A DNA stretch of 64,000 nt from a virus, in IMG/VR virus record IMGVR_UViG_3300045988_126140, positions 69,599 through 133,598 of that record. The stretch is one strand, 5' to 3'. The position numbers and the translations under genes are program-made. Under the pieces are notes generated by a model. That model worked only from the letters and a program-made list of their open reading frames with translations. It ran no database searches and was not told where the DNA came from. This document shows, piece after piece, positions 16,848 through 24,524 of the stretch. Each line of letters starts with the position of its first letter. Positions within the stretch are counted from its first letter, which is position 1.

Positions 16848-17699
16848 CTACTCATTTATATATAAAAATCCCTCACCTTGAAGTTTTGAACTTATGCCCA
16901 AGTCTTTAGTATGCTTAATAAGTCTTGCATACAACTCTTCTTCTGAAGGAATTCTACCATATTTATTTATAAATTTTTCTCTTAATAATAATGATGCTCC
17001 TGTAACTATAGGTGCTGACATTGAAGTTCCACTGCTCTTACACCATTTATTATCGAAGTATACAGATACAATATCTGTTCCAACAGCTACTATATCCACC
17101 CATTCGTTACTATTACTATATCTAGCAATAGATAAATCTTGATTTACTGCACCAACGTTTACACATTCTTGATAACTAGCAGGATATCCATATTCATCTG
17201 TATTTGCATTTTCATCACCGTCATTACCTGCTGAAGTAACAACAAGAATACCACGTGTATTAGCTTCTTTTACTAATTCATGTAATTCTTCATCACTTTT
17301 GGTGCTTCCTAAACTCATAGATATTACATGAACATTTTGTTCTAAGGCATATTTAAAAGCATTTATAATACTTTTCATATCACCTTCACCTTTAGAGTTT
17401 AGTGCTTTAGCAACTACTACTTCACACTCTGGTGCTATTTGTATTACCTCACCTATACAGAAACTACCATGATTATTTTTATCAGTATAATCTTCTGAAG
17501 TTCCTTCATTTGTAAAATTTTTGCCTGCTACAATATTATTAACTATAAATGAATGAGAATGTGAACCTGTATCAATAATACAAACTCTTTGTCCTTTTCC
17601 GTTATATCCTTGTTCATGTAAAACTTGTATATTAGAAAGTTGTATTCCTTTACATATATAATTCTCATAAGGATTTGTTGATAAAATATTATAATCCAT
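16848..17699 (-). CDS. subtilisin-like (S8) serine protease
   Basis: Catalytic triad contexts VCIIDTGS (Asp), NHGSFCIG (His) and SGTSMSAPIVTG (Ser). Confidence 0.8.
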   Translation of the reverse strand: MDYNILSTNPYENYICKGIQLSNIQVLHEQGYNGKGQRVCIIDTGSHSHSFIVNNIVAGKNFTNEGTSEDYTDKNNHGSFCIGEVIQIAPECEVVVAKALNSKGEGDMKSIINAFKYALEQNVHVISMSLGSTKSDEELHELVKEANTRGILVVTSAGNDGDENANTDEYGYPASYQECVNVGAVNQDLSIARYSNSNEWVDIVAVGTDIVSVYFDNKWCKSSGTSMSAPIVTGASLLLREKFINKYGRIPSEEELYARLIKHTKDLGISSKLQGEGFLYINE

Positions 17700-17719
17700 T
17701 ATATCACCTCCTTATTTTT

Positions 17720-19186
17720 TTAATAATCACCTGCGTTATCCGCTTCTGGCGCTCTATTCGGGTCACCAGACTCCTCTGATGTACTCGGTCTACCACCTGT
17801 ATTTTCAATATCTGCTCCCGACATTGTATGCGAATTAGCTAACGGACTCATAAGAGTTCCAAAATCTAATATACTTTCTATTTGAAGTATATTTAACGCT
17901 TCTAATGGTGAATATCCACATATTCCTAAATGTTCTAGCTTGCTTGTCCACGTTGTTAATCTATTGCAACTAGATTGAATTTTTTCCTCTTTATTAAATT
18001 TGGTTGTATCACAGAAATATAATTGAAAATTTTTTAATGATGAATTTTTACTAAAAACATAATTTAACCATATTTTGATTCTATCTAATAAATTCAATGG
18101 TACTAAACTATCTACAATTGTCCCATAGATTACAGATTGAGTGCTACTTCTATTATCTCCATTAAATAAATTACTATCTATACCAGCTGTATCATATACA
18201 TTTTTAGTTAAATTGTTTATTTCCTCATAATCAGAAACTTTATTAGTTTGTAATGAAACAGAATCTATTGGGTAAGGTGAACTTACAACTCCTATACCAT
18301 CTCTGACATTTTTAACTAATGCTCTATGATAAAACGTTGCTGTTTCTGGCTCTATACTTAAATCACCGTCATCATCTGTAGGCAATAGTTGGTGAATTAA
18401 TTTGAAGTTATTAGCTTCAATATTTTCCATACTAGCATCTGCTAAATCTTTTATCCTACTTAAATCTAAAAGCAATCCAGAATAATATGGAATACCTTTA
18501 CTTTCTATTACTTCTGGAAGAAAAGCTATTGCATTTTCAAGTGGTAACATGTAATAGTTGTCTATGAAATTTTCATCATTTTTCAATTTACCTGCTTTAT
18601 AATCAGCGTATAAATTTTGAATATCTATTGGGTAATATCCTAATTGTTTAGTATTAATACCACTAAGTTTTATACTATAACCTAACATAAAAGATTCGGT
18701 ATAAGTAACTTTGCATAAATCTTCTGGTAAAGAAACAAATGTAATATTATCACTTGTTTCTTGTTTATATAAATATATTTCTCCTTTTCTAAATTCGCTT
18801 TCTAAAATCCAGGGACAAAGAGTTTTTAAATTATATTTTTCTAACTCTAAACAGGCTTTTCTGTAAGATTTAAAAAAGTTATCTTGTCCTTTAGTTATAA
18901 ATTTACTCGCATCTAATGGGACTAAATAATGGTCGTAAGTTAATAAATTCGATTTATAATTTATTATTTCTTTTAAATTACCATTAATAACCCTCATTAA
19001 TTCAGATTGTTGTTGTAGTGTAGTAACATTAGAATAAGGATTTTCTAAGGCACTAGCTATTGTATCCGTATCAACTTTACTTCTCTTTCTACTACTAGCT
19101 ACCTTATCTATACTATTTATATCAATCATAGAAGATTTCTGTGCAAATTCTAAATTATTCTTTCTATTATCTTTCCCTTCGTTCAA
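17720..19186 (-). CDS. portal protein, putative
   Basis: 488 aa ORF directly downstream of terL. TTG start 6 nt after SD AAAGGTGGTGA. Acidic/Gly-rich C-terminal tail. Confidence 0.6.
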   Translation of the reverse strand: MNEGKDNRKNNLEFAQKSSMIDINSIDKVASSRKRSKVDTDTIASALENPYSNVTTLQQQSELMRVINGNLKEIINYKSNLLTYDHYLVPLDASKFITKGQDNFFKSYRKACLELEKYNLKTLCPWILESEFRKGEIYLYKQETSDNITFVSLPEDLCKVTYTESFMLGYSIKLSGINTKQLGYYPIDIQNLYADYKAGKLKNDENFIDNYYMLPLENAIAFLPEVIESKGIPYYSGLLLDLSRIKDLADASMENIEANNFKLIHQLLPTDDDGDLSIEPETATFYHRALVKNVRDGIGVVSSPYPIDSVSLQTNKVSDYEEINNLTKNVYDTAGIDSNLFNGDNRSSTQSVIYGTIVDSLVPLNLLDRIKIWLNYVFSKNSSLKNFQLYFCDTTKFNKEEKIQSSCNRLTTWTSKLEHLGICGYSPLEALNILQIESILDFGTLMSPLANSHTMSGADIENTGGRPSTSEESGDPNRAPEADNAGDY

Positions 19187-19203
19187 ACATTTTCACCACC
19201 TTT

Positions 19204-20323
19204 TTAATTAGCCAAGAAAATATGTCTCTTTTTCTTATTCCTATTTTTCTTTCTTATATCTCTTTCTATCAATTCTGCTAAATAATTACCATAAGTAATA
19301 GAAGAATATCTATCCTTACGATTTCTTCCTTTTTCTTTAAGAACTATATCACCATTCCCCATAGTTTCATAATCTAAGTTTATTGATTCAAATATAAAAT
19401 TAGATGTTTGAATAAATGGTGCTATTTTATTAGCATGATATTCTGCGTCTTGATGATATTTTAAGTCTTTACTAAAATCTCCTCTTTTTTCATTTTCTTC
19501 TATTAATAATCTTATTTTTTTACTACTAAAAGCATTTTTAAGATATACTGCACAATCATTATTTATTTTTTGATTCCCTTTAATTACATATATACAATTT
19601 ATACCATTTTTTAAAGGTTGAAAATCTTTTGATTGCGTACTCATATCATAAATACCAAAAGGTTCGTAATGTTCATCAATATTTTCGTCATAAGATGATT
19701 TTTCCATCTCTTGTATTACTGCTATACCTAAACCACCACCATCTATAATGATTTTATCAGCTTTAAATTCTGTATATAATCTCTTAATTCTAGTGGCTTG
19801 TTTTTCAAATTTCATACCATTATGTGATTCCATATAAACAACTTCTCTAATAATATTATTTCCACTAGGAAGTAATCTCCATAAAGTAAAAATAGAGTTA
19901 TCATTTTTATTTGATTTGTTAGCTTTTGCCGTTGCTACGTCAACTGAAATTATTCTTATTTCATCTTTCTTTTTAGGCATTCGTTTTAATTTTTCTTTCT
20001 TTTTATCTGGATTCCTATAATCGTCGTCCGTTAATGGATAATAACAATTCTTTAAAACTCTTGCATTCAACATATCTGCTGTATTAAAGAAACAATCTCC
20101 ACTTTGTCCATGCCATATAGCACCATATTCCATATTAAATACAAATTCACCCATATCCTCTTTATCTTCTTCAATCTTATCTTTTAAGACAAGTTTATGG
20201 TCTAAAGATGCCAAATAAGGAATTGCACAAGCAAATGCTTTTCCATTTTCAAACATTCTATTAAATATGGTTGTGAATTTTTCATAACTCCAGTGAACTT
20301 TTAACCACGCACTAGAAAGATAT
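19204..20323 (-). CDS. terL: terminase large subunit, exon 2 (nuclease domain)
   Basis: The frame is open upstream of the annotated Met back to 20322 (YLSSAWLKVHWSYEKF..). RNase-H-like nuclease acidic motifs IISVDVA and IIIDGGGLG. Confidence 0.75.
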
Positions 20324-20577
20324 CAATTTGTTATTAACTATAGGTTTTTTATCCTATACTCTGGAGGTTTCCCTCATTTTCATCGGTTAGTCAATTCTAA
20401 CCCAGTTTAGCATATATTTTCATTCTCTAAATTCTGTATAATGAATGTAGGATACTCTTGGGATACTAATTTTAGTATGTAAAATAATTACGGCATTATA
20501 TTCTGTGGAGGGTAATTATCCCTCAAACAGTTTCAGCCCCTATGCGTTACAATACTTATAGTTTTTAAACATATAAG

Positions 20578-21558
20578 TTATCTCGGTATTAGCTTATTTA
20601 TAAAATAATCATTTAAAGTTTTAATTGTATTTTCATAATAAGGTATTCTTAACATATTTATATTATTACTTTTACAATAATTATTTTTAATTCCATCTTT
20701 AATTATTTGGATTTTAAATCCTTCTTCTCCTCCAAATAATTCTACTGGCATAAAATGTTGTCTACCATCGTATTCAACAACTAAATTATAATTAGGAATA
20801 TAAAAATCAAATCTTAGTACATCATTATATTTACAATCATTGAATATGTATTCTCTTTCAAATCCAATATTTTTACTTAATAAATATTCCAGAATTTCTT
20901 GTTCCCCTTTGCTAATTGTAGCTTTTGACATTTTGTCATATCCTTTTCTAGCCATACATTTGGGGCAAATTATTTCAATATTGTTTTTAATTTTATCTTT
21001 AATGTGATAAAAATTTTGCTCATATTCTTTTCCACATTTACATTTTAATTTTAATTTTTCGCCTGGAATATATTCAGTAGACAATAATTCACTTTCACCA
21101 GTACTTTCACATATAAGTTTTACGTCATGGAAACTACAATAATGTCCATTATTGTTTTCTATATTTCTTTGTTTTCTTATTTTTTCAGCACATTTAGGAC
21201 AAGTTTTTGTTTTACTTTTTTTAAATAATTCCCATGTTGTTTCATAAGTTTCACCACACGTTCCACATTTAACTAATAGTGAAGTATATACATTTTTATA
21301 TTCAGTTGAAAGTAATTTATTACCATAAGATTCAATTTCACTTCTAACTTTATCTATACTCACTTTGTTATTAGAACAAGTTTGACAATAATATCTTTTT
21401 TTATTTTTAAAATCTTGAAAACTTCTTTCAAATACATCTCCACATTTACAACGAATTTTCAATTTTTGTTTGTTATTAATATACTCTTTAGTTAATAAGG
21501 TACAACCTTTTGATTCTATATATTCCTTAACTTTATCATAATCATATCTAACTCCCAT
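20578..21558 (-). CDS. intron-encoded nuclease: triple zinc-ribbon repeat plus PD-(D/E)XK (Vsr/DUF559-like) domain
   Basis: Three repeats of LL(S/T)xEY..(K/V)C.CG..(F/Y)E..(F/W)..F........CP.C. C-terminal RFDFYIPNYNLVVEYDGRQHF matches the D..(E)xK nuclease core. Has its own class-2 promoter and SD. Confidence 0.6.
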   Translation of the reverse strand: MGVRYDYDKVKEYIESKGCTLLTKEYINNKQKLKIRCKCGDVFERSFQDFKNKKRYYCQTCSNNKVSIDKVRSEIESYGNKLLSTEYKNVYTSLLVKCGTCGETYETTWELFKKSKTKTCPKCAEKIRKQRNIENNNGHYCSFHDVKLICESTGESELLSTEYIPGEKLKLKCKCGKEYEQNFYHIKDKIKNNIEIICPKCMARKGYDKMSKATISKGEQEILEYLLSKNIGFEREYIFNDCKYNDVLRFDFYIPNYNLVVEYDGRQHFMPVELFGGEEGFKIQIIKDGIKNNYCKSNNINMLRIPYYENTIKTLNDYFINKLIPR

Positions 21559-21579
21559 AAATTCACCCCCTTTTTTATA

Positions 21580-21617
21580 TTATTGTATTAACATAACTCA
21601 ATGATTAATTACTTATA
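21580..21617 (-). promoter_or_regulatory. class-2 bipartite promoter-like element (copy a)
   Basis: Minus strand TATAAGTAATTAAT-N9-ATGTTAATAC, with a 23-nt register (21617 to 21594), upstream of the intron ORF. Confidence 0.5.
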
Positions 21618-21739
21618 AATTATTAATTATTTTATAAACTTAGCCTTTCTTACCATGTATATCACTATACATTTGACCGATTTTACCCTATTTTAAATAT
21701 AAGCACTTATACTTTACTTATATTGAGACATATCTTTTT

Positions 21740-22407
21740 ATCTCCATATTTGATTCTAATGGATAATCTTTATATTCGGGTTTTTCTAAAAACGGAGGTT
21801 TTCTTGGATTTGTTAAGAATTGTTTTAAAACTGAATTTATTACATCTAATTTGATAAGCCTAAATTCATCTGCAACCAATACATTCCCTCTCAAGCCTCT
21901 CGCTCCATCATTAGAAGCTATAGCTGTTATTACAGAACCATTTTTAAATATACATTTAACATTATCTTTATTATTTTGAACTTTTTTAATTTCTTTTGCT
22001 AACGCAGGGTAATCCCTTCGTAAATCTTCAATCTTTTCGGTTATAATTAATCCTGCCTGGTCTTTGTTACCAGATGCAACTATTATTTTAGAACCTGGAT
22101 ATAATATTGCTCTACAACATACAAATATCGCAGTTAGAAATGACTTACCGAGACCACGTGACGCAATAAAGCAGAAACTTGTGCATATATTCATCATATA
22201 AAGTAATATTTGTTGAAACAAATATAAATTAATTCCTAACCAATCCATACAAAATCTATGTGGATTTTTTCTAAAATATTCTGTCCATATTTTTACACCA
22301 TCTAATAAATTTTCATATGAATCTTTTTTTAAGTTTTTTCTTTGTTTGCATTTTAATCTATTCTCCATATCCTTTTTCATCCTCCTCTGTATAAGGAGTT
22401 GAATCAT
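21740..22407 (-). CDS. terL: terminase large subunit, exon 1 (ATPase domain)
   Basis: Walker A SRGLGKSFLT and Walker B VLVADEF. The ORF 21718..22407 reads 7 codons into the insert and then stops. Start is ambiguous (22407, 22380 or 22368). Confidence 0.75.
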
Positions 22408-23203
22408 TATTTATTAACTTTTTAATAGGATTTAAGAAGTAACGATTTAACCACCATTTAATTCTATCCACATCATCGTATTCTTGGTGGACATCTGGAA
22501 TAGGTTCATTTTTTTCTACTTTAGCAATTAATGTACCATAACTTAAATTATCGTCTTCACCATATTTGCTCATTTTAGATGGTAAAACATTTAGTTCTTC
22601 CATACGTTTAGAAATTTGATTAGTTAAGTTTTCAAATGCTTTTTGGTCATTCTTAACTATAGCTCTTTCTCTTAAAACTTCTAACATACATATTGTTTTA
22701 ATTAAATTAACTTCTTGAATGGCTTTAGACGGATAATTATCTGTGTATTGTTCATATTTTCTTTGGAGTAATTCATACTCATCATCTTGAAATCCCTTAC
22801 CCCAAAAGTTAACAATCTCACTTGAAGTAACTGTCTCTCCAGTAATAATATTAGTTACACCATCATAAGTAAGCATATTATCTAAAGATGTTAACCCTTT
22901 AAATGCTTTATCTCTATTCATTATTCTAGTATAATTACCTAAAAAATTATTGCCATATTTCTCAACACATTTTAGATATGTTTCTTCGTCATAATACATA
23001 TCTAAAACCATACATAAATGTATAAATGCTAATCTACGGTCGTTGTTATAATTTTTTAATAACTTTTTAAAATATTTATCAACTACTTCTTTACTCATGG
23101 GTAATTTCTTATCATGCTCATAAAGCATTGATTGTGTAGAGTAGAAATCTCTAACGGTAGGTTTAAATTTACCTGTAGCTGAACATTGTTTTGTGTCTGC
23201 CAT
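22358..23203 (-). CDS. terminase small subunit, putative
   Basis: 281 aa ORF, first gene of the late operon, overlapping the terL start. Call by position. Confidence 0.5.
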   Translation of the reverse strand: MADTKQCSATGKFKPTVRDFYSTQSMLYEHDKKLPMSKEVVDKYFKKLLKNYNNDRRLAFIHLCMVLDMYYDEETYLKCVEKYGNNFLGNYTRIMNRDKAFKGLTSLDNMLTYDGVTNIITGETVTSSEIVNFWGKGFQDDEYELLQRKYEQYTDNYPSKAIQEVNLIKTICMLEVLRERAIVKNDQKAFENLTNQISKRMEELNVLPSKMSKYGEDDNLSYGTLIAKVEKNEPIPDVHQEYDDVDRIKWWLNRYFLNPIKKLINNDSTPYTEEDEKGYGE

Positions 23204-23224
23204 TATATCACTCTCCTTTAAAAT

Positions 23225-23270
23225 GAAAAAAAATGGTTACGACTAATGGAAGGAGTTTTTAGCCGTAACC
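23225..23270 (-). terminator. intrinsic terminator in the late-operon leader
   Basis: Hairpin GGTTACG..CGTAACC (23235..23270), followed on the minus strand by eight U and then directly by the SD of the terS candidate. Confidence 0.65.
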
Positions 23271-23357
23271 TAAAGGGGAGAATTTATTATGAATTTTGAG
23301 CCTTATTTTAAAGACTCAAAAAATACTGATATAATTATCAATATCATTTCAATCCTT

Positions 23358-23388
23358 AAAATAAAAATACCACTCTTATTCGAGTGGT
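23358..23388 (-). terminator. intrinsic terminator after 23397..24524
   Basis: Hairpin ACCACTC..GAGTGGT (23369..23388), then AUUUUUAUUUU. Confidence 0.7.
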
Positions 23389-23396
23389 TTAATTAA

Positions 23397-24524
23397 TTAT
23401 TCAACTTTCATTACATAACTTGCAACTACTCCATCTTCATCAAGTATTAATAATGTTTGAGAAGGTTTATTATATAATTTTTTCTTCATAGCATAATCGT
23501 CTGTTGAAATCAAACTACCATTTACATATATATCTGTGTTATATTGTGAAAACATCTTAGGTTGATGATAATGTCCTAATAAAATTAAATCTATGTTTTC
23601 ACCACCTATAACCATAGATAATTCTTCACTTACTTTATTTAAATTAACTTGGTCGCCATGACATGAAACAACTGTATTTCCTTTTACATTCATTACAGAT
23701 AATTCACCATTATTTATCGAATCTAAAAATACAACATTAGATAAATTTAATGTTCTCATTTTTATCATCTCATTTAATAACATAGAGTAATTATTACCAT
23801 TACTTCTATCGTCTTTCATCATTTCTACTGCTTCATGGTTACCATTATTTTGAGTTACAGTTAAATAAAAATAATTTGACAATTTCTCTATTACCTGTGA
23901 TATTATTTCACTAACACTTACTATTTGTTTTACTAAAGATTCTTGATTAGATAGCTTTATACTATTATGTAATTCACCAGATATTAAATCTCCGTTCAAT
24001 ACTAAATGCAATTTATCTATGTTATTATCAATACAATGTTCTATTGTTTTATTAATTATTTTATCTAACCTTTCTATAGCTATATCTTTATTATATTTAT
24101 TTACTGAATTTTCTACAATCATAGAAATATGTAAATCGCTTAATATTAAAATTCCGTCTTTTCCACTTGAATCTTCTTTTAAAACATAACGATTTAATAA
24201 TGGACTTCTTAAATTTAAATTATTAATTTCTTCTCTTATTAAATCCATTACATTTTCCATCCTAGACAATCCTCTTAATTGTCTATTCACTTCTGTTCTT
24301 AAATCGGTTAGCTTTATTTTTTCCTTTTTTATTTCAGCTAATGTTTTACTGTCCATGTCATTTTCACTTATAGTTTCAGAATATAATTTAAATCCATATG
24401 CTAATTTTCTTAAATGGTCGTCTGAATAATCTGTTTCGTATTTTCTATTTATATCTTCCCATGACATATCATTTAATTTATTAAGTTTATTTAAACAATC
24501 CTGTATTAATCCCTTTTTATTCAT
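23397..24524 (-). CDS. calcineurin-like metallophosphoesterase (SbcD/Mre11-like fold)
   Basis: Motifs ILSDLHIS, LNGDLISG, GNHE, CHGDQ and LLGHYHQP, in the canonical order. Confidence 0.8.
   Translation of the reverse strand: MNKKGLIQDCLNKLNKLNDMSWEDINRKYETDYSDDHLRKLAYGFKLYSETISENDMDSKTLAEIKKEKIKLTDLRTEVNRQLRGLSRMENVMDLIREEINNLNLRSPLLNRYVLKEDSSGKDGILILSDLHISMIVENSVNKYNKDIAIERLDKIINKTIEHCIDNNIDKLHLVLNGDLISGELHNSIKLSNQESLVKQIVSVSEIISQVIEKLSNYFYLTVTQNNGNHEAVEMMKDDRSNGNNYSMLLNEMIKMRTLNLSNVVFLDSINNGELSVMNVKGNTVVSCHGDQVNLNKVSEELSMVIGGENIDLILLGHYHQPKMFSQYNTDIYVNGSLISTDDYAMKKKLYNKPSQTLLILDEDGVVASYVMKVE

What the first reader, a model, noticed from the sequence alone, without database searches (positions are those of the whole stretch)
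19204..22407. terL is split by a ~1.4 kb group I-like intron carrying a zinc-ribbon/PD-(D/E)XK nuclease; a precise splice junction can be proposed
The ATPase half of terL (Walker A/B, 21740..22407) and the nuclease half (19204..20323) are separated by 1416 nt. The insert contains an independently promoted nuclease ORF (20578..21558).

Proposed junction: the 5' exon ends ..AAU AUG GAG AU (21740), and the 3' exon starts A UAU CUU UCU AGU GCG UGG (20323). This gives ..ESNMEI-YLSSAWLKVHW.. in one 595-codon frame.

Group I rules are met:
- The exon ends in U.
- That U can pair as U.G in a 5-bp P1 (GAGAU with GUCUC, 21729..21725).
- The intron ends in G (20324).
- A 10-bp long-range helix (21673..21681 with 20382..20394) brackets the ORF.

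In-frame stops rule out an intein. Introns in terminase genes are known in a few phages. This nuclease architecture (three zinc-ribbon repeats plus a Vsr-like core) as the intron passenger is less familiar.
Basis: partly seen in the sequence, partly recalled or inferred. Interest (0 to 1): 0.7.

Follow-up and report, generated by a model that had tools for sequence, protein, structure and literature searches.

The report
Mobile group I intron splitting terL
The phage's large terminase gene is interrupted by a 1,416-base self-splicing-type (group I) intron that carries its own homing nuclease gene; this is real and neatly documented, but it is an ordinary example of a kind of mobile element already known in phage terminase genes.

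Summary
terL (minus strand) is split into exon 1 (22407..21740) and exon 2 (20323..19204) by a 1416-nt insert holding a 326-aa ORF (21558..20578). The proposed junction is right. Intron-less alleles in public viral contigs encode one contiguous 595-aa TerL, 99.2-99.7% identical to the predicted spliced product.

The insert is a group I intron by structure, not by database match. Rfam found nothing, but it also missed T4 td.
- The intron belongs to a large family: more than 118 viral contigs, 49 bacterial genome stretches, and AR9/PBS1 gyrA.
- A sequence-only alignment of this family supports P3, P5 to P9.1 and the P3/P7 pseudoknot: 96.4% of cells paired, 37 of 58 pairs compensatory.
- P4 covaries in other family members.
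- P1 covaries with each host exon and always has U.G at the splice site.

The ORF sits in the P5 loop and overlaps P5/P4/P6.

The nuclease has three zinc-ribbon repeats plus a Vsr/I-Bth0305I-like core. This is a described homing-endonuclease family, already reported in terL introns.

Verdict: a new member of a known kind, of modest interest. Splicing itself is inferred, not shown.

The parts
21740..22407 (-). terL exon 1 (codons 1-222 plus 2 nt of codon 223). Walker A SRGLGKS lies about 22161..22141 and Walker B VLVADE about 21882..21865. The last 5 nt, GAGAU (21744..21740), form the exon strand of P1.
20324..21739 (-). Group I intron, 1416 nt, from A(+1) at 21739 to the terminal G (omega-G) at 20324.
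21725..21734 (-). Internal guide sequence. GAUAU (21734..21730) pairs with the first 5 nt of exon 2 (P10). GUCUC (21729..21725) pairs with exon GAGAU (P1, with U.G at the splice site).
21696..21724 (-). P2 hairpin (AAUAUAAG ... CUUAUAUU).
21676..21690 (-). P3 5' strand UAGGGUA (21690..21684), J3/4 AAA, and P4 5' strand UCGGU (21680..21676).
21656..21671 (-). Lineage-specific extra hairpin in J4/5 (UGUAUA GUGA UAUACA).
21629..21645 (-). P5 5' strand GGCU plus the P5a extension UUUAUAAAAU. This is the stem whose loop holds the ORF.
20578..21558 (-). Homing endonuclease ORF, 326 aa, with Shine-Dalgarno GGGGGUG at 21570..21564. It has three ~60-aa Cys4 zinc-ribbon repeats (about aa 5-63, 67-125, 143-203) and a C-terminal Vsr/EDxHD-like nuclease (about aa 215-320). 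Its last codons overlap P5a'/P5'/J5/4/P4'/P6.
20551..20606 (-). P5a 3' strand (20606..20597), P5 3' strand AGCU (20594..20591), J5/4 AAU, P4 3' strand ACCGA (20587..20583), and P6/P6a hairpin (20582..20551).
20410..20550 (-). Catalytic core, 3' half:
- J6/7 GUAAC
- P7 5' strand GCAUA (20545..20541)
- P7.1-like hairpin with a lineage-specific insertion (20540..20460)
- CAAGAG
- P3 3' strand UAUCCUA (20454..20448)
- P8 (20447..20421)
- J8/7 AAAAUA (20420..20415)
- P7 3' strand UAUGC (20414..20410)
20324..20409 (-). Highly conserved P9 domain:
- three-way junction CUG/CAG with hairpins P9a (20402..20385) and P9b GAGG-GAAA-CCUC (20375..20364)
- P9.1 (20358..20339)
- tail GUUAAUAACAAAUUG ending in omega-G at 20324
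19204..20323 (-). terL exon 2: third nt of codon 223, then codons 224-595 and the stop. It begins AUAUC (P10 partner). YLSS is at 20322..20311. The RNase H-like nuclease domain lies further downstream.

Best explanation
The 1416-nt insert is a mobile group I intron.

Splicing (inferred, not shown):
- After transcription of terL, the intron RNA folds into the classical core: P1-P2, the P4-P5-P6 stack, and P3-P7-P8 with the P3/P7 pseudoknot, plus a large P9 domain.
- The guide sequence GAUAU-GUCUC aligns both exons.
- An external guanosine attacks after U21740, which is held in a U.G pair in P1.
- The freed exon then attacks after the terminal G (20324).
- Ligation gives ..GAG AU|A UAU.. and a 595-aa TerL.

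The ORF in the P5 loop encodes a homing endonuclease: three zinc-ribbon DNA-binding repeats plus a Vsr/EDxHD-type nuclease. It presumably cuts intron-less terL alleles at the conserved EIYLSS-coding site. Repair from the intron-bearing copy would then spread the intron.

Because the ORF's last codons overlap P5, P4 and P6, translating the nuclease and folding the ribozyme should be mutually exclusive on one transcript. This is an inference.
For: Junction:
- Contiguous intron-less alleles L129/L130/L131/L145 are 99.2-99.7% identical in protein to the predicted spliced product over residues 1-595. They are 98.3-99% identical in DNA.
- Alignment to phiCD211 and SPbeta TerL has no gap at the junction.

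Mobility signature:
- Nearly identical terL genes occur with no intron, with the intron plus ORF (1389-1416 nt), and with an ORF-less intron (409-410 nt).
- Substitutions between the intron-containing and intron-less alleles cluster at -30..-3 and +15 of the junction.

P1:
- All 5 intron-bearing alleles have G at -3, which pairs with the guide sequence. All 7 intron-less alleles have A or U at -3.
- Across the family, the guide sequence changes with the host exon and always gives U.G at the splice site.

P10: 5 of 5 pairs.

Core:
- A MAFFT sequence-only alignment of 20 ORF-less relatives gives 96.4% paired cells, against 76% for shuffles and 34-43% for slid controls. 37 of 58 pairs have compensatory changes. 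P3 is 100% paired.
- P7 occurs in 4 compensatory versions, including the classical GACUA/UAGUC.
- P3 is 7/7 complementary in 40 of 51 members, against 1.8% in controls. This includes 12 members where an ORF separates the strands by 873-1306 nt.
- P4 covaries: UCGGU/ACCGA, UACGA/UCGUG, CGGG/UCCG, CUGG/UCAG.

Relatives and stability:
- AR9 gyrA introns of the same family are annotated as spliced, in a 3-piece CDS.
- The ORF-less allele folds with z = -4.25.

Nuclease:
- phrog_559 match at 1e-61.
- AlphaFold2 model with pLDDT 88.7.
- Best Foldseek hits are Vsr 1cw0/1vsr and I-Bth0305I 3r3p, probability 0.99-1.00.
- Homologs are annotated 'group I intron protein' inside terL of Staphylococcus and Enterococcus phages.
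Against: - There is no experimental evidence of splicing for this locus: no RNA data.
- Rfam's Intron_gpI model gives no hit even at E<=10 on the window, on the ORF-less allele, or on AR9 relatives. It does give E=2e-5 on the DT1 lysin intron, so this family is unusually far from the curated model.
- Only one hairpin sits where IA2 introns have P7.1 and P7.2, so the subgroup is unassigned.
- The nuclease has no significant sequence match to any solved structure. Foldseek E-values are weak (0.02-0.12) because the query has several domains.
- Endonuclease activity and target are inferred.
- The substitution cluster could reflect nuclease-resistance mutations rather than co-conversion.
Confidence: 0.9

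Rival explanations
1. The RNA is a group I intron, but it does not self-splice. It would be removed only in infected cells with help from a host or phage protein, possibly its own nuclease acting as a maturase.
For: - In Bastillevirinae phages, 4 of 8 validated group I introns spliced only in vivo (PMC11878797).
- The intron is very A+U-rich, 24% G+C.
- It has short P4 (5 bp), P5, P6 and P7 (5 bp) helices.
- The ORF overlaps the P4-P6 core.
Against: - The full set of core helices and a large, conserved P9 domain with a GAAA tetraloop are present.
- The fold is clearly more stable than shuffles.
- ORF-less copies persist in otherwise intact terL genes, so the nuclease cannot be an obligatory cis maturase.
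Confidence: 0.25
2. The insert is a non-splicing insertion. Either terL is a pseudogene, or it is expressed as two separate polypeptides that assemble.
For: - Both halves are open reading frames.
- PHROGs holds separate families for each half: phrog_15503 and phrog_26582.
- No curated RNA model matches.
Against: - Exon 2 has no start codon before 20256 and no Shine-Dalgarno there. A separate C-fragment would lose the invariant YLSS..HWS segment.
- Exon 1 would gain 7 junk codons.
- Exons stay 98-99% identical to intact alleles, with no frameshifts.
- The insert is a conserved structured RNA with compensatory changes.
- The separate PHROG families are best explained by other intron-split genes annotated as two CDS.
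Confidence: 0.04
3. The insert is another class of intervening sequence: a group II intron carrying a homing nuclease, or an intein.
For: Homologous CapR-like/Vsr-like nucleases do occur in a few phage group II introns (PMC12350094).
Against: - The ORF-less form is only 409-410 nt.
- The boundaries are A..G, not GUGYG..AY.
- There is no reverse transcriptase and no group II hit.
- The topology is P3/P7-pseudoknotted group I.
- An intein is excluded by 13 in-frame stops.
Confidence: 0.01

Closest known systems
Group I introns with phrog_559 'VSR endonuclease' genes in terL of Bastillevirinae phages (Weglewska et al. 2025, PMC11878797), and 'group I intron protein' genes in terL of Staphylococcus (Romulus, K-like) and Enterococcus (156) phages
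   Same: Same host gene. Same nuclease family: phrog_559 at 1e-61 and 29-31% full-length identity to the Staphylococcus (Romulus) and Enterococcus (156) proteins. Same logic of an ORF in a ribozyme loop.
   Different: The phage lineage differs: an SPbeta/phiCD211-like siphovirus known only from metagenomes. I could not check whether the RNA core family and insertion site are the same. Those introns were found through Rfam/GISSD models; this one is not matched by Rfam.
AR9/PBS1, BpSp and phiR1-37 gyrase A / topoisomerase II introns
   Same: Same RNA family. The last ~95 nt are 79-88% identical. They share the same P3-P9 architecture with compensatory changes. AR9 copies are annotated as spliced.
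   Different: Different host gene and phage type (jumbo myoviruses). The AR9 copies lack an ORF. The phiR1-37 ORF lies upstream of P3, not in L5. P4 and J3/4 differ (CUGG/UCAG).
T4 td and S. thermophilus DT1 lysin introns (phage subgroup IA2)
   Same: - U.G at the 5' splice site and omega-G.
- P7 with a bulged nucleotide next to a G-C pair.
- J8/7 of the AAGAUA type. Some family members even have the classical UAGUC strand (DT1 alignment).
- A hairpin between P7 and P3'.
- An extended P9 region.
- A homing nuclease ORF in a peripheral loop.
   Different: There is one P7.1-like hairpin instead of P7.1+P7.2 (the position of these in IA2 is from my memory). P9 is a conserved three-way junction. 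The ORF is in L5 rather than P6a and runs into P5/P4/P6. Sequence is too far from RF00028 to score.
I-Bth0305I / EDxHD homing endonucleases and the CapR-like-repeat + Vsr-like outgroup described by Merk et al. 2025 (PMC12350094)
   Same: - C-terminal ~100-aa Vsr-like fold.
- Three ~60-aa zinc-ribbon repeats with weak DUF4379/DUF723 matches.
- Location in phage introns.
   Different: No significant sequence match to 3R3P or Vsr. Activity and cleavage site are unknown.

Membership tests
Group I intron | The 5' exon ends in U, which forms a U.G wobble with an internal guide sequence (P1). | tested here: met
   GAGAU/GUCUC at 21744..21740 and 21729..21725. The guide sequence covaries with the exon in at least 12 family members, always with U.G. 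G at -3 is found only in intron-bearing alleles.
Group I intron | The intron ends in G (omega-G), and exon ligation restores the reading frame. | tested here: met
   G at 20324. All 8 aligned relatives end in G. Intron-less alleles match the ligated product.
Group I intron | Conserved core topology: P3-P4-P5-P4'-P6-P7-P3'-P8-P7', with the P3/P7 pseudoknot. | tested here: met
   58 pairs, 96.4% paired, 37 with compensatory changes, 0 of 500 shuffles as good, slid controls 34-43%. Searches support P7, P3 and P4.
Group I intron | Guanosine-binding P7 (G-C pair next to a bulged nucleotide) and the conserved J8/7 / R-S sequence elements. | tested here: met
   A[C]GCAUA / UAUGCU, with J8/7 AAAAUA, AAAAGA or AAAAUG. 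11 members (8 with the matching GACUA 5' strand) carry UAGUC preceded by AAAUAUA, as in the classical S element (compare the DT1 alignment). Binding itself was not tested.
Group I intron | Match to the curated covariance model (Rfam RF00028). | tested here: not met
   No hit at gathering threshold or at E<=10, and none for relatives. Controls: T4 td was missed; DT1 lysin intron scored 29.3 bits, E=2e-5, below the gathering score of 50. The test has low sensitivity.
Group I intron | Guanosine-dependent self-splicing. | not testable with these tools
   Needs an in vitro transcript plus GTP, or RNA-seq.
Group I subgroup IA2 (phage type) | P7.1 and P7.2 hairpins plus P9.0/P9.1/P9.2 extensions; match to GISSD IA2 model. 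| tested here: inconclusive
   One covarying hairpin lies between P7 and P3', and there is an extended P9 domain. GISSD subgroup models are not available here.
EDxHD / Vsr-like homing endonuclease with CapR-like repeats | Vsr-like (PD-(D/E)XK-related) catalytic fold. | tested here: met
   Foldseek best hits: 1cw0_A, 1vsr and 3r3p_B, with probability 0.99-1.00 and TM-score (target) 0.51-0.63, on a model with pLDDT 88.7. Invariant D251, E262, D288, K291; H268 is nearly invariant (>=90%).
EDxHD / Vsr-like homing endonuclease with CapR-like repeats | Three to five ~60-aa zinc-ribbon (CapR/DUF4379/DUF723-like) repeats N-terminal to the nuclease. | tested here: met
   Three repeats, each with two Cys pairs. 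Weak Pfam hits to DUF4379, DUF723 and Zn_ribbon. Homologs carry PF14311, PF05265 and PF21817.
EDxHD / Vsr-like homing endonuclease with CapR-like repeats | Site-specific cleavage of the intron-less allele. | not testable with these tools
   Only indirect evidence: presence/absence polymorphism and clustered flanking substitutions.
Intein | The insert is translated in frame with both exteins. | tested here: not met
   13 in-frame stops, the first at codon 8 of the insert.
Group II intron | GUGYG..AY boundaries, domains D1-D6, usually a reverse transcriptase ORF. | tested here: not met
   Boundaries are AAAAAG..AAUUG. The ORF-less form is 409-410 nt. There is no group II Rfam hit. The ORF is a nuclease.

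The most novel reading that the evidence does not exclude
The intron may belong to a very widespread but unclassified lineage of group I introns in phages and prophages of Bacillota.

The lineage is marked by:
- a near-invariant P9 three-way junction (..CUG-hairpin-GAUGAAAAU-GAGG GAAA CCUC-CAG..)
- a single P7.1 hairpin
- often a nuclease ORF in L5 whose 3' end is part of the P5/P4/P6 core

Curated models miss this lineage. As a result, many split genes (terL, gyrA, dnaE/polC, tail genes) are annotated as fragments.
Probability: 0.35. Interest if true: 0.5.

Novelty: new member of a known kind. Interest (0 to 1): 0.3.

Why it matters
For annotation, terL of this phage lineage should be one spliced 595-aa gene, not two 'terminase' fragments plus an 'HNH endonuclease'.

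The set of near-identical alleles captures the life cycle of a homing intron in one gene:
- no intron
- intron with ORF
- intron without ORF
- up to three introns in one terL

The set also shows a flanking substitution tract and an exon change that preserves P1. This makes it a convenient natural system for studying homing and intron-exon co-adaptation.

The family alignment could also seed a covariance model. That model would find many intron-split phage genes that Rfam misses. None of this changes what is known about how such elements work.

Tried and rejected
- **Rfam, 8 searches.** No Intron_gpI hit for the window at gathering threshold or at E<=10 on sub-ranges. None for the ORF-less allele L023, the AR9/Cpe1181/S-CoN_Ph1 loci, or L144/L135. 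Controls showed low sensitivity: T4 td was missed and DT1 was found only below gathering. I therefore did not count this against the intron.
Rejected. Its 5' strand is P4, which covaries with ACCGA at 20587..20583. Its 3' strand is the loop and 3' arm of P9a, which covaries locally. In AR9-type members P4 changes but the supposed partner does not.
- **blastn of the 5' 240 nt of the region against phages.** No match. Only the 3' core is conserved at the sequence level.
- **Sequence searches of the nuclease against solved structures.** Nothing meaningful, either with the single sequence or with a profile of 30 homologs. The fold comparison was needed.
- **Own promoter for the ORF.** Not found.
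- **Megablast of the whole terL region against isolated phages.** No close relative, so the host remains unknown. The genome-collection scan gave no contig with this terL exon.
- **The AR9 genome paper.** It could not be read, so experimental splicing of the AR9 gyrA introns is second-hand, from the RefSeq join and the statement in bioRxiv 10.1101/2020.12.14.422802.
- **My first regex parse of P3** used a loose anchor and gave a diluted signal. It was redone with a control.
Full report
**What is there.** On the minus strand, an ORF with the terminase ATPase signatures runs from 22407 and stops at 21718. It matches Pfam Terminase_6N and TerL_ATPase and carries Walker A SRGLGKS and Walker B VLVADE. 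A second ORF, 20256..19204, matches the terminase RNase H-like domain. Between them lies a 326-aa ORF, 21558..20578. Joining 22407..21740 to 20323..19204 gives 668+1120 nt and one 595-codon frame reading ..ESNMEI|YLSSAWLKVHW... The intron sits in phase 2 of codon 223 (Ile). The insert has 13 stops in the exon-1 frame, so an intein is excluded.

**The gene is normally continuous and the junction is exact.**
- The closest isolated relatives are SPbeta YonF (589 aa) and phiCD211 TerL (582 aa). Both are single genes.
- The joined window protein aligns to them without any gap at the junction, inside the invariant block EIYLSS.
- A scan of IMG/VR found 19 loci of the same terL lineage. L129, L130, L131 and L145 encode one contiguous 595-aa protein, 99.2-99.7% identical to the predicted spliced product.
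- At the DNA level these alleles are 98.3-99.0% identical to the window's joined exons.
- The only ambiguity is a one-base slide (GAGAU|..G|AUAUC or GAGAUA|..GA|UAUC). Only the first option obeys the U / omega-G rule.
- The split is not between an ATPase half and a nuclease half. It lies within the ATPase domain, just before YLSS. I take YLSS to be the ATPase coupling motif, by position relative to Walker B; this is an inference.

**Signature of a mobile element.**
- In the same lineage the site is empty in L129-L133, L138 and L145.
- It is occupied by an ORF-bearing intron of 1389-1416 nt in the window, L113/L140 and L120/L147.
- It is occupied by an ORF-less intron of 409-410 nt in L143 and L023/L144.
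- The ORF-less allele differs from the window only by precise absence of the ORF from one hairpin loop.
- Differences between the window and the intron-less alleles cluster at -30, -21, -20, -18, -12, -9, -3 and +15 of the junction. This looks like a co-conversion or target-site tract.
- Other introns occupy two more sites in this terL, after codons 87 and 171. L144 carries three introns.

**What kind of RNA it is.**
Rfam gave nothing at gathering threshold or at E<=10. This held for the window, for the ORF-less allele and for relatives. Controls show this test is weak. The T4 td intron was also missed. The S. thermophilus DT1 lysin intron scored 29.3 bits against a gathering score of 50.

I therefore worked from comparative data.
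- blastn showed that the last ~95 nt of the insert are 79-88% identical to the 3' ends of inserts that split other phage genes. These include terL of Clostridium phage vB_CpeS-1181, gyrA/topoisomerase II of AR9, PBS1, BpSp and Yersinia phiR1-37, and tail genes of other phages.
- In AR9 the host CDS is annotated as a three-piece join, with two ORF-less introns of ~360 nt.
It was also in 49 stretches of species-representative bacterial genomes, almost all Clostridia or other Bacillota.

**The fold.** The family has the order P1-P2-P3-J3/4-P4-J4/5-P5-J5/4-P4'-P6-J6/7-P7-(hairpin)-P3'-P8-J8/7-P7'-P9 domain-omega-G.

I took a MAFFT alignment of 20 ORF-less cores, made from sequence alone, and counted pairs for the structure I wrote on it:
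- 96.4% of 1134 cells are paired, against 76.1% in partner shuffles (0 of 500 as high) and 34-43% when partners are slid by 1-3 columns.
- 37 of 58 pairs show changes on both sides.
- The P3 pseudoknot helix is 100% paired, with double changes in 6 of 7 pairs.

Independent anchor-based tallies agree:
- P7 exists in four compensatory versions: GCAUA/UAUGC, GCGUA/UACGC, GACUA/UAGUC and GAGUA/UACUC. A perfect partner is present in 94 of 100 unique copies.
- The 7-mer before the AAA-UCGGU anchor is perfectly complementary to the 7-mer after CAAGAG in 40 of 51 copies, against 1.8% with foreign partners. This includes 12 copies where an ORF separates the strands by 873-1306 nt.
- P4 is mostly UCGGU/ACCGA. 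It switches to UACGA/UCGUG, CGGG/UCCG and CUGG/UCAG in sublineages.

Other group I hallmarks are present:
- P7 has the bulged nucleotide next to a G-C pair (A[C]GCAUA/UAUGCU).
- J8/7 is AAAAUA/AAAAGA, and some members carry the textbook ..AUAUAGUCUAA element.
- P1 was read by eye in the sequences upstream of P3. The guide sequence changes with the host exon: GGU/GCC, GGGGU/GCCCC, GAGGU/GCCUC, UGGCU/GGCCA, AGCCGCU/GGCGGCU, GUCGCU/GGCGAC, GCGGAU/GUCCGC. It always begins with the G that wobble-pairs the last exon U.

**The window copy.** Exact coordinates are.
- P1 is GAGAU (21744..21740) with GUCUC (21729..21725).
- Immediately 5' of it, GAUAU (21734..21730) is perfectly complementary to the first five exon-2 bases, AUAUC.
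- All five distinct intron-bearing alleles have G at exon position -3, paired with the guide C. All seven intron-less alleles have A or U there.
- P3 is 21690..21684 with 20454..20448. P4 is 21680..21676 with 20587..20583. P7 is 20545..20541 with 20414..20410.
- The ORF lies in the loop of P5/P5a (21645..21629 with 20606..20591).
- The ORF's last codons (..AAG CUA AUA CCG AGA UAA) are the P5', J5/4, P4' and P6 strands.
- The lineage has two private insertions: a GUGA-capped hairpin in J4/5, and extra sequence in the P7.1 hairpin.
- The minimum-free-energy fold of the ORF-less allele has z = -4.25 and reproduces P1, P2, P5/P5a, P6a, P9a, P9b and P9.1.
It uses the P4 strand and the P9a hairpin, both of which have better-supported partners, so I reject it.

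**The passenger.**
- The ORF has a strong Shine-Dalgarno (GGGGGUG, 7 nt before the AUG). The consensus scan finds no promoter-like site upstream within the intron.
- It matches phrog_559 at 1e-61 and other 'homing/intron-encoded endonuclease' PHROGs. It gives only weak Pfam zinc-ribbon, DUF4379 and DUF723 hits.
- It has three ~60-aa repeats, each with two Cys pairs. Its C-terminal domain has invariant D251, E262, D288 and K291; H268 is nearly invariant (>=90%).
- Sequence searches against solved structures fail.
- An AlphaFold2 model (pLDDT 88.7) finds Vsr endonuclease (1cw0, 1vsr) and the I-Bth0305I catalytic domain (3r3p) as best matches, with probability 0.99-1.00.
- This is the architecture described by Merk et al. 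2025 (PMC12350094). It is also the phrog_559 'VSR endonuclease' found in terL introns of Bastillevirinae (PMC11878797).
- Homologs at 29-33% identity occur in 329 GenBank phage records. Several are annotated 'group I intron protein' within terL.

**Mechanism and status of each step.**
- Shown by sequence comparison: the exon junction, the group I secondary structure and its conservation, the presence/absence polymorphism, and the nuclease fold.
- Inferred from established group I and homing biology: guanosine-initiated two-step transesterification, P10-guided ligation, cleavage of intron-less alleles by the ORF product, and repair-mediated spread with co-conversion.
- Speculative: a translation-versus-folding conflict caused by the ORF overlapping P5/P4/P6.
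- Unknown: whether the RNA self-splices in vitro or needs a cofactor.

**Novelty.** Group I introns in terminase genes, and this nuclease family inside them, are already documented. This is a new member in an uncultured SPbeta/phiCD211-like lineage; it has no close relative among isolated phages. What is mildly new is the definition of a large, tightly conserved intron family that the Rfam model does not score, and a clean natural allele series. I could not test the family against subgroup-specific models, so a claim of a new subgroup stays open.

Noticed in passing
L144 1783..4785 (IMG/VR 3300030381_000407); also L143, L135-L137, L139: The same terL lineage has two further intron sites, after codon 87 and after codon 171. 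L144 carries three introns in one terL and L143 carries two. None is matched by Rfam. I did not check whether they belong to the same RNA family.
   Followed up: partly
L152, L166, L167, L171, L174, L187, L190, L192 (bacterial genome contigs), 3' of the motif: The same intron family recurrently precedes the exon (F)LNPERVSMPD of a DnaE/PolC-type polymerase. In many loci the exon is followed right after ..CCAGAT by TAA... This suggests a second intron only ~33 nt downstream, leaving a mini-exon between two introns.
   Followed up: no
window 20578..20606: The nuclease ORF ends inside the ribozyme core. Its last six codons (K L I P R stop) are encoded by the conserved P5'/J5/4/P4'/P6 sequence AAGCUAAUACCGAGAUAA. 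Other ORF-bearing members (for example vB_CpeS-1181, L003) end in the same ..AUACCGAGGUAA.
   Followed up: partly
window 21772..21743 and 20309 versus L129/L130/L131/L145: Seven silent differences from the intron-less alleles lie within 30 nt upstream of the splice site, and one lies 15 nt downstream. The rest of the 1.8-kb gene has about 10-22 differences. L113/L140 carry the intron but have the 'intron-less' flank, except for the G at -3.
   Followed up: yes
L148 (T4-like phage td region) and L198 3900..4700 (phage DT1 lysin): Tool sensitivity note. The Rfam search at E<=1 did not report the textbook T4 td group I intron. The DT1 lysin intron scored only 29.3 bits against a gathering score of 50.
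   Followed up: yes
L008 (Staphylococcus phage vB-SscS-F1), L010 (Caldibacillus phage CBP1), L009 (Clostridium phage CB452P1), L005 (S-CoN_Ph1): Genes annotated as two fragments appear to be split by introns of the same or a related family. They include major tail protein, tape-measure 'TMP repeat' proteins and terL, often with an unannotated or 'hypothetical' ORF between the fragments.
   Followed up: no
window 16848..24524: Module order on the minus strand: SbcD-like ORF (24524..23397), a 281-aa ORF overlapping the terL start by 50 nt (23203..22358), terL, portal-like ORF (19186..17720), then a subtilisin-like ORF with a GTSMSAP motif (17699..16848). The exonuclease / yonG-like ORF / terL / portal part of this order matches SPbeta yonJ-yonE and phiCD211; the subtilisin-like ORF was not compared. 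The true terL start may be an internal Met (M10 or M14), since homologs begin later.
   Followed up: no
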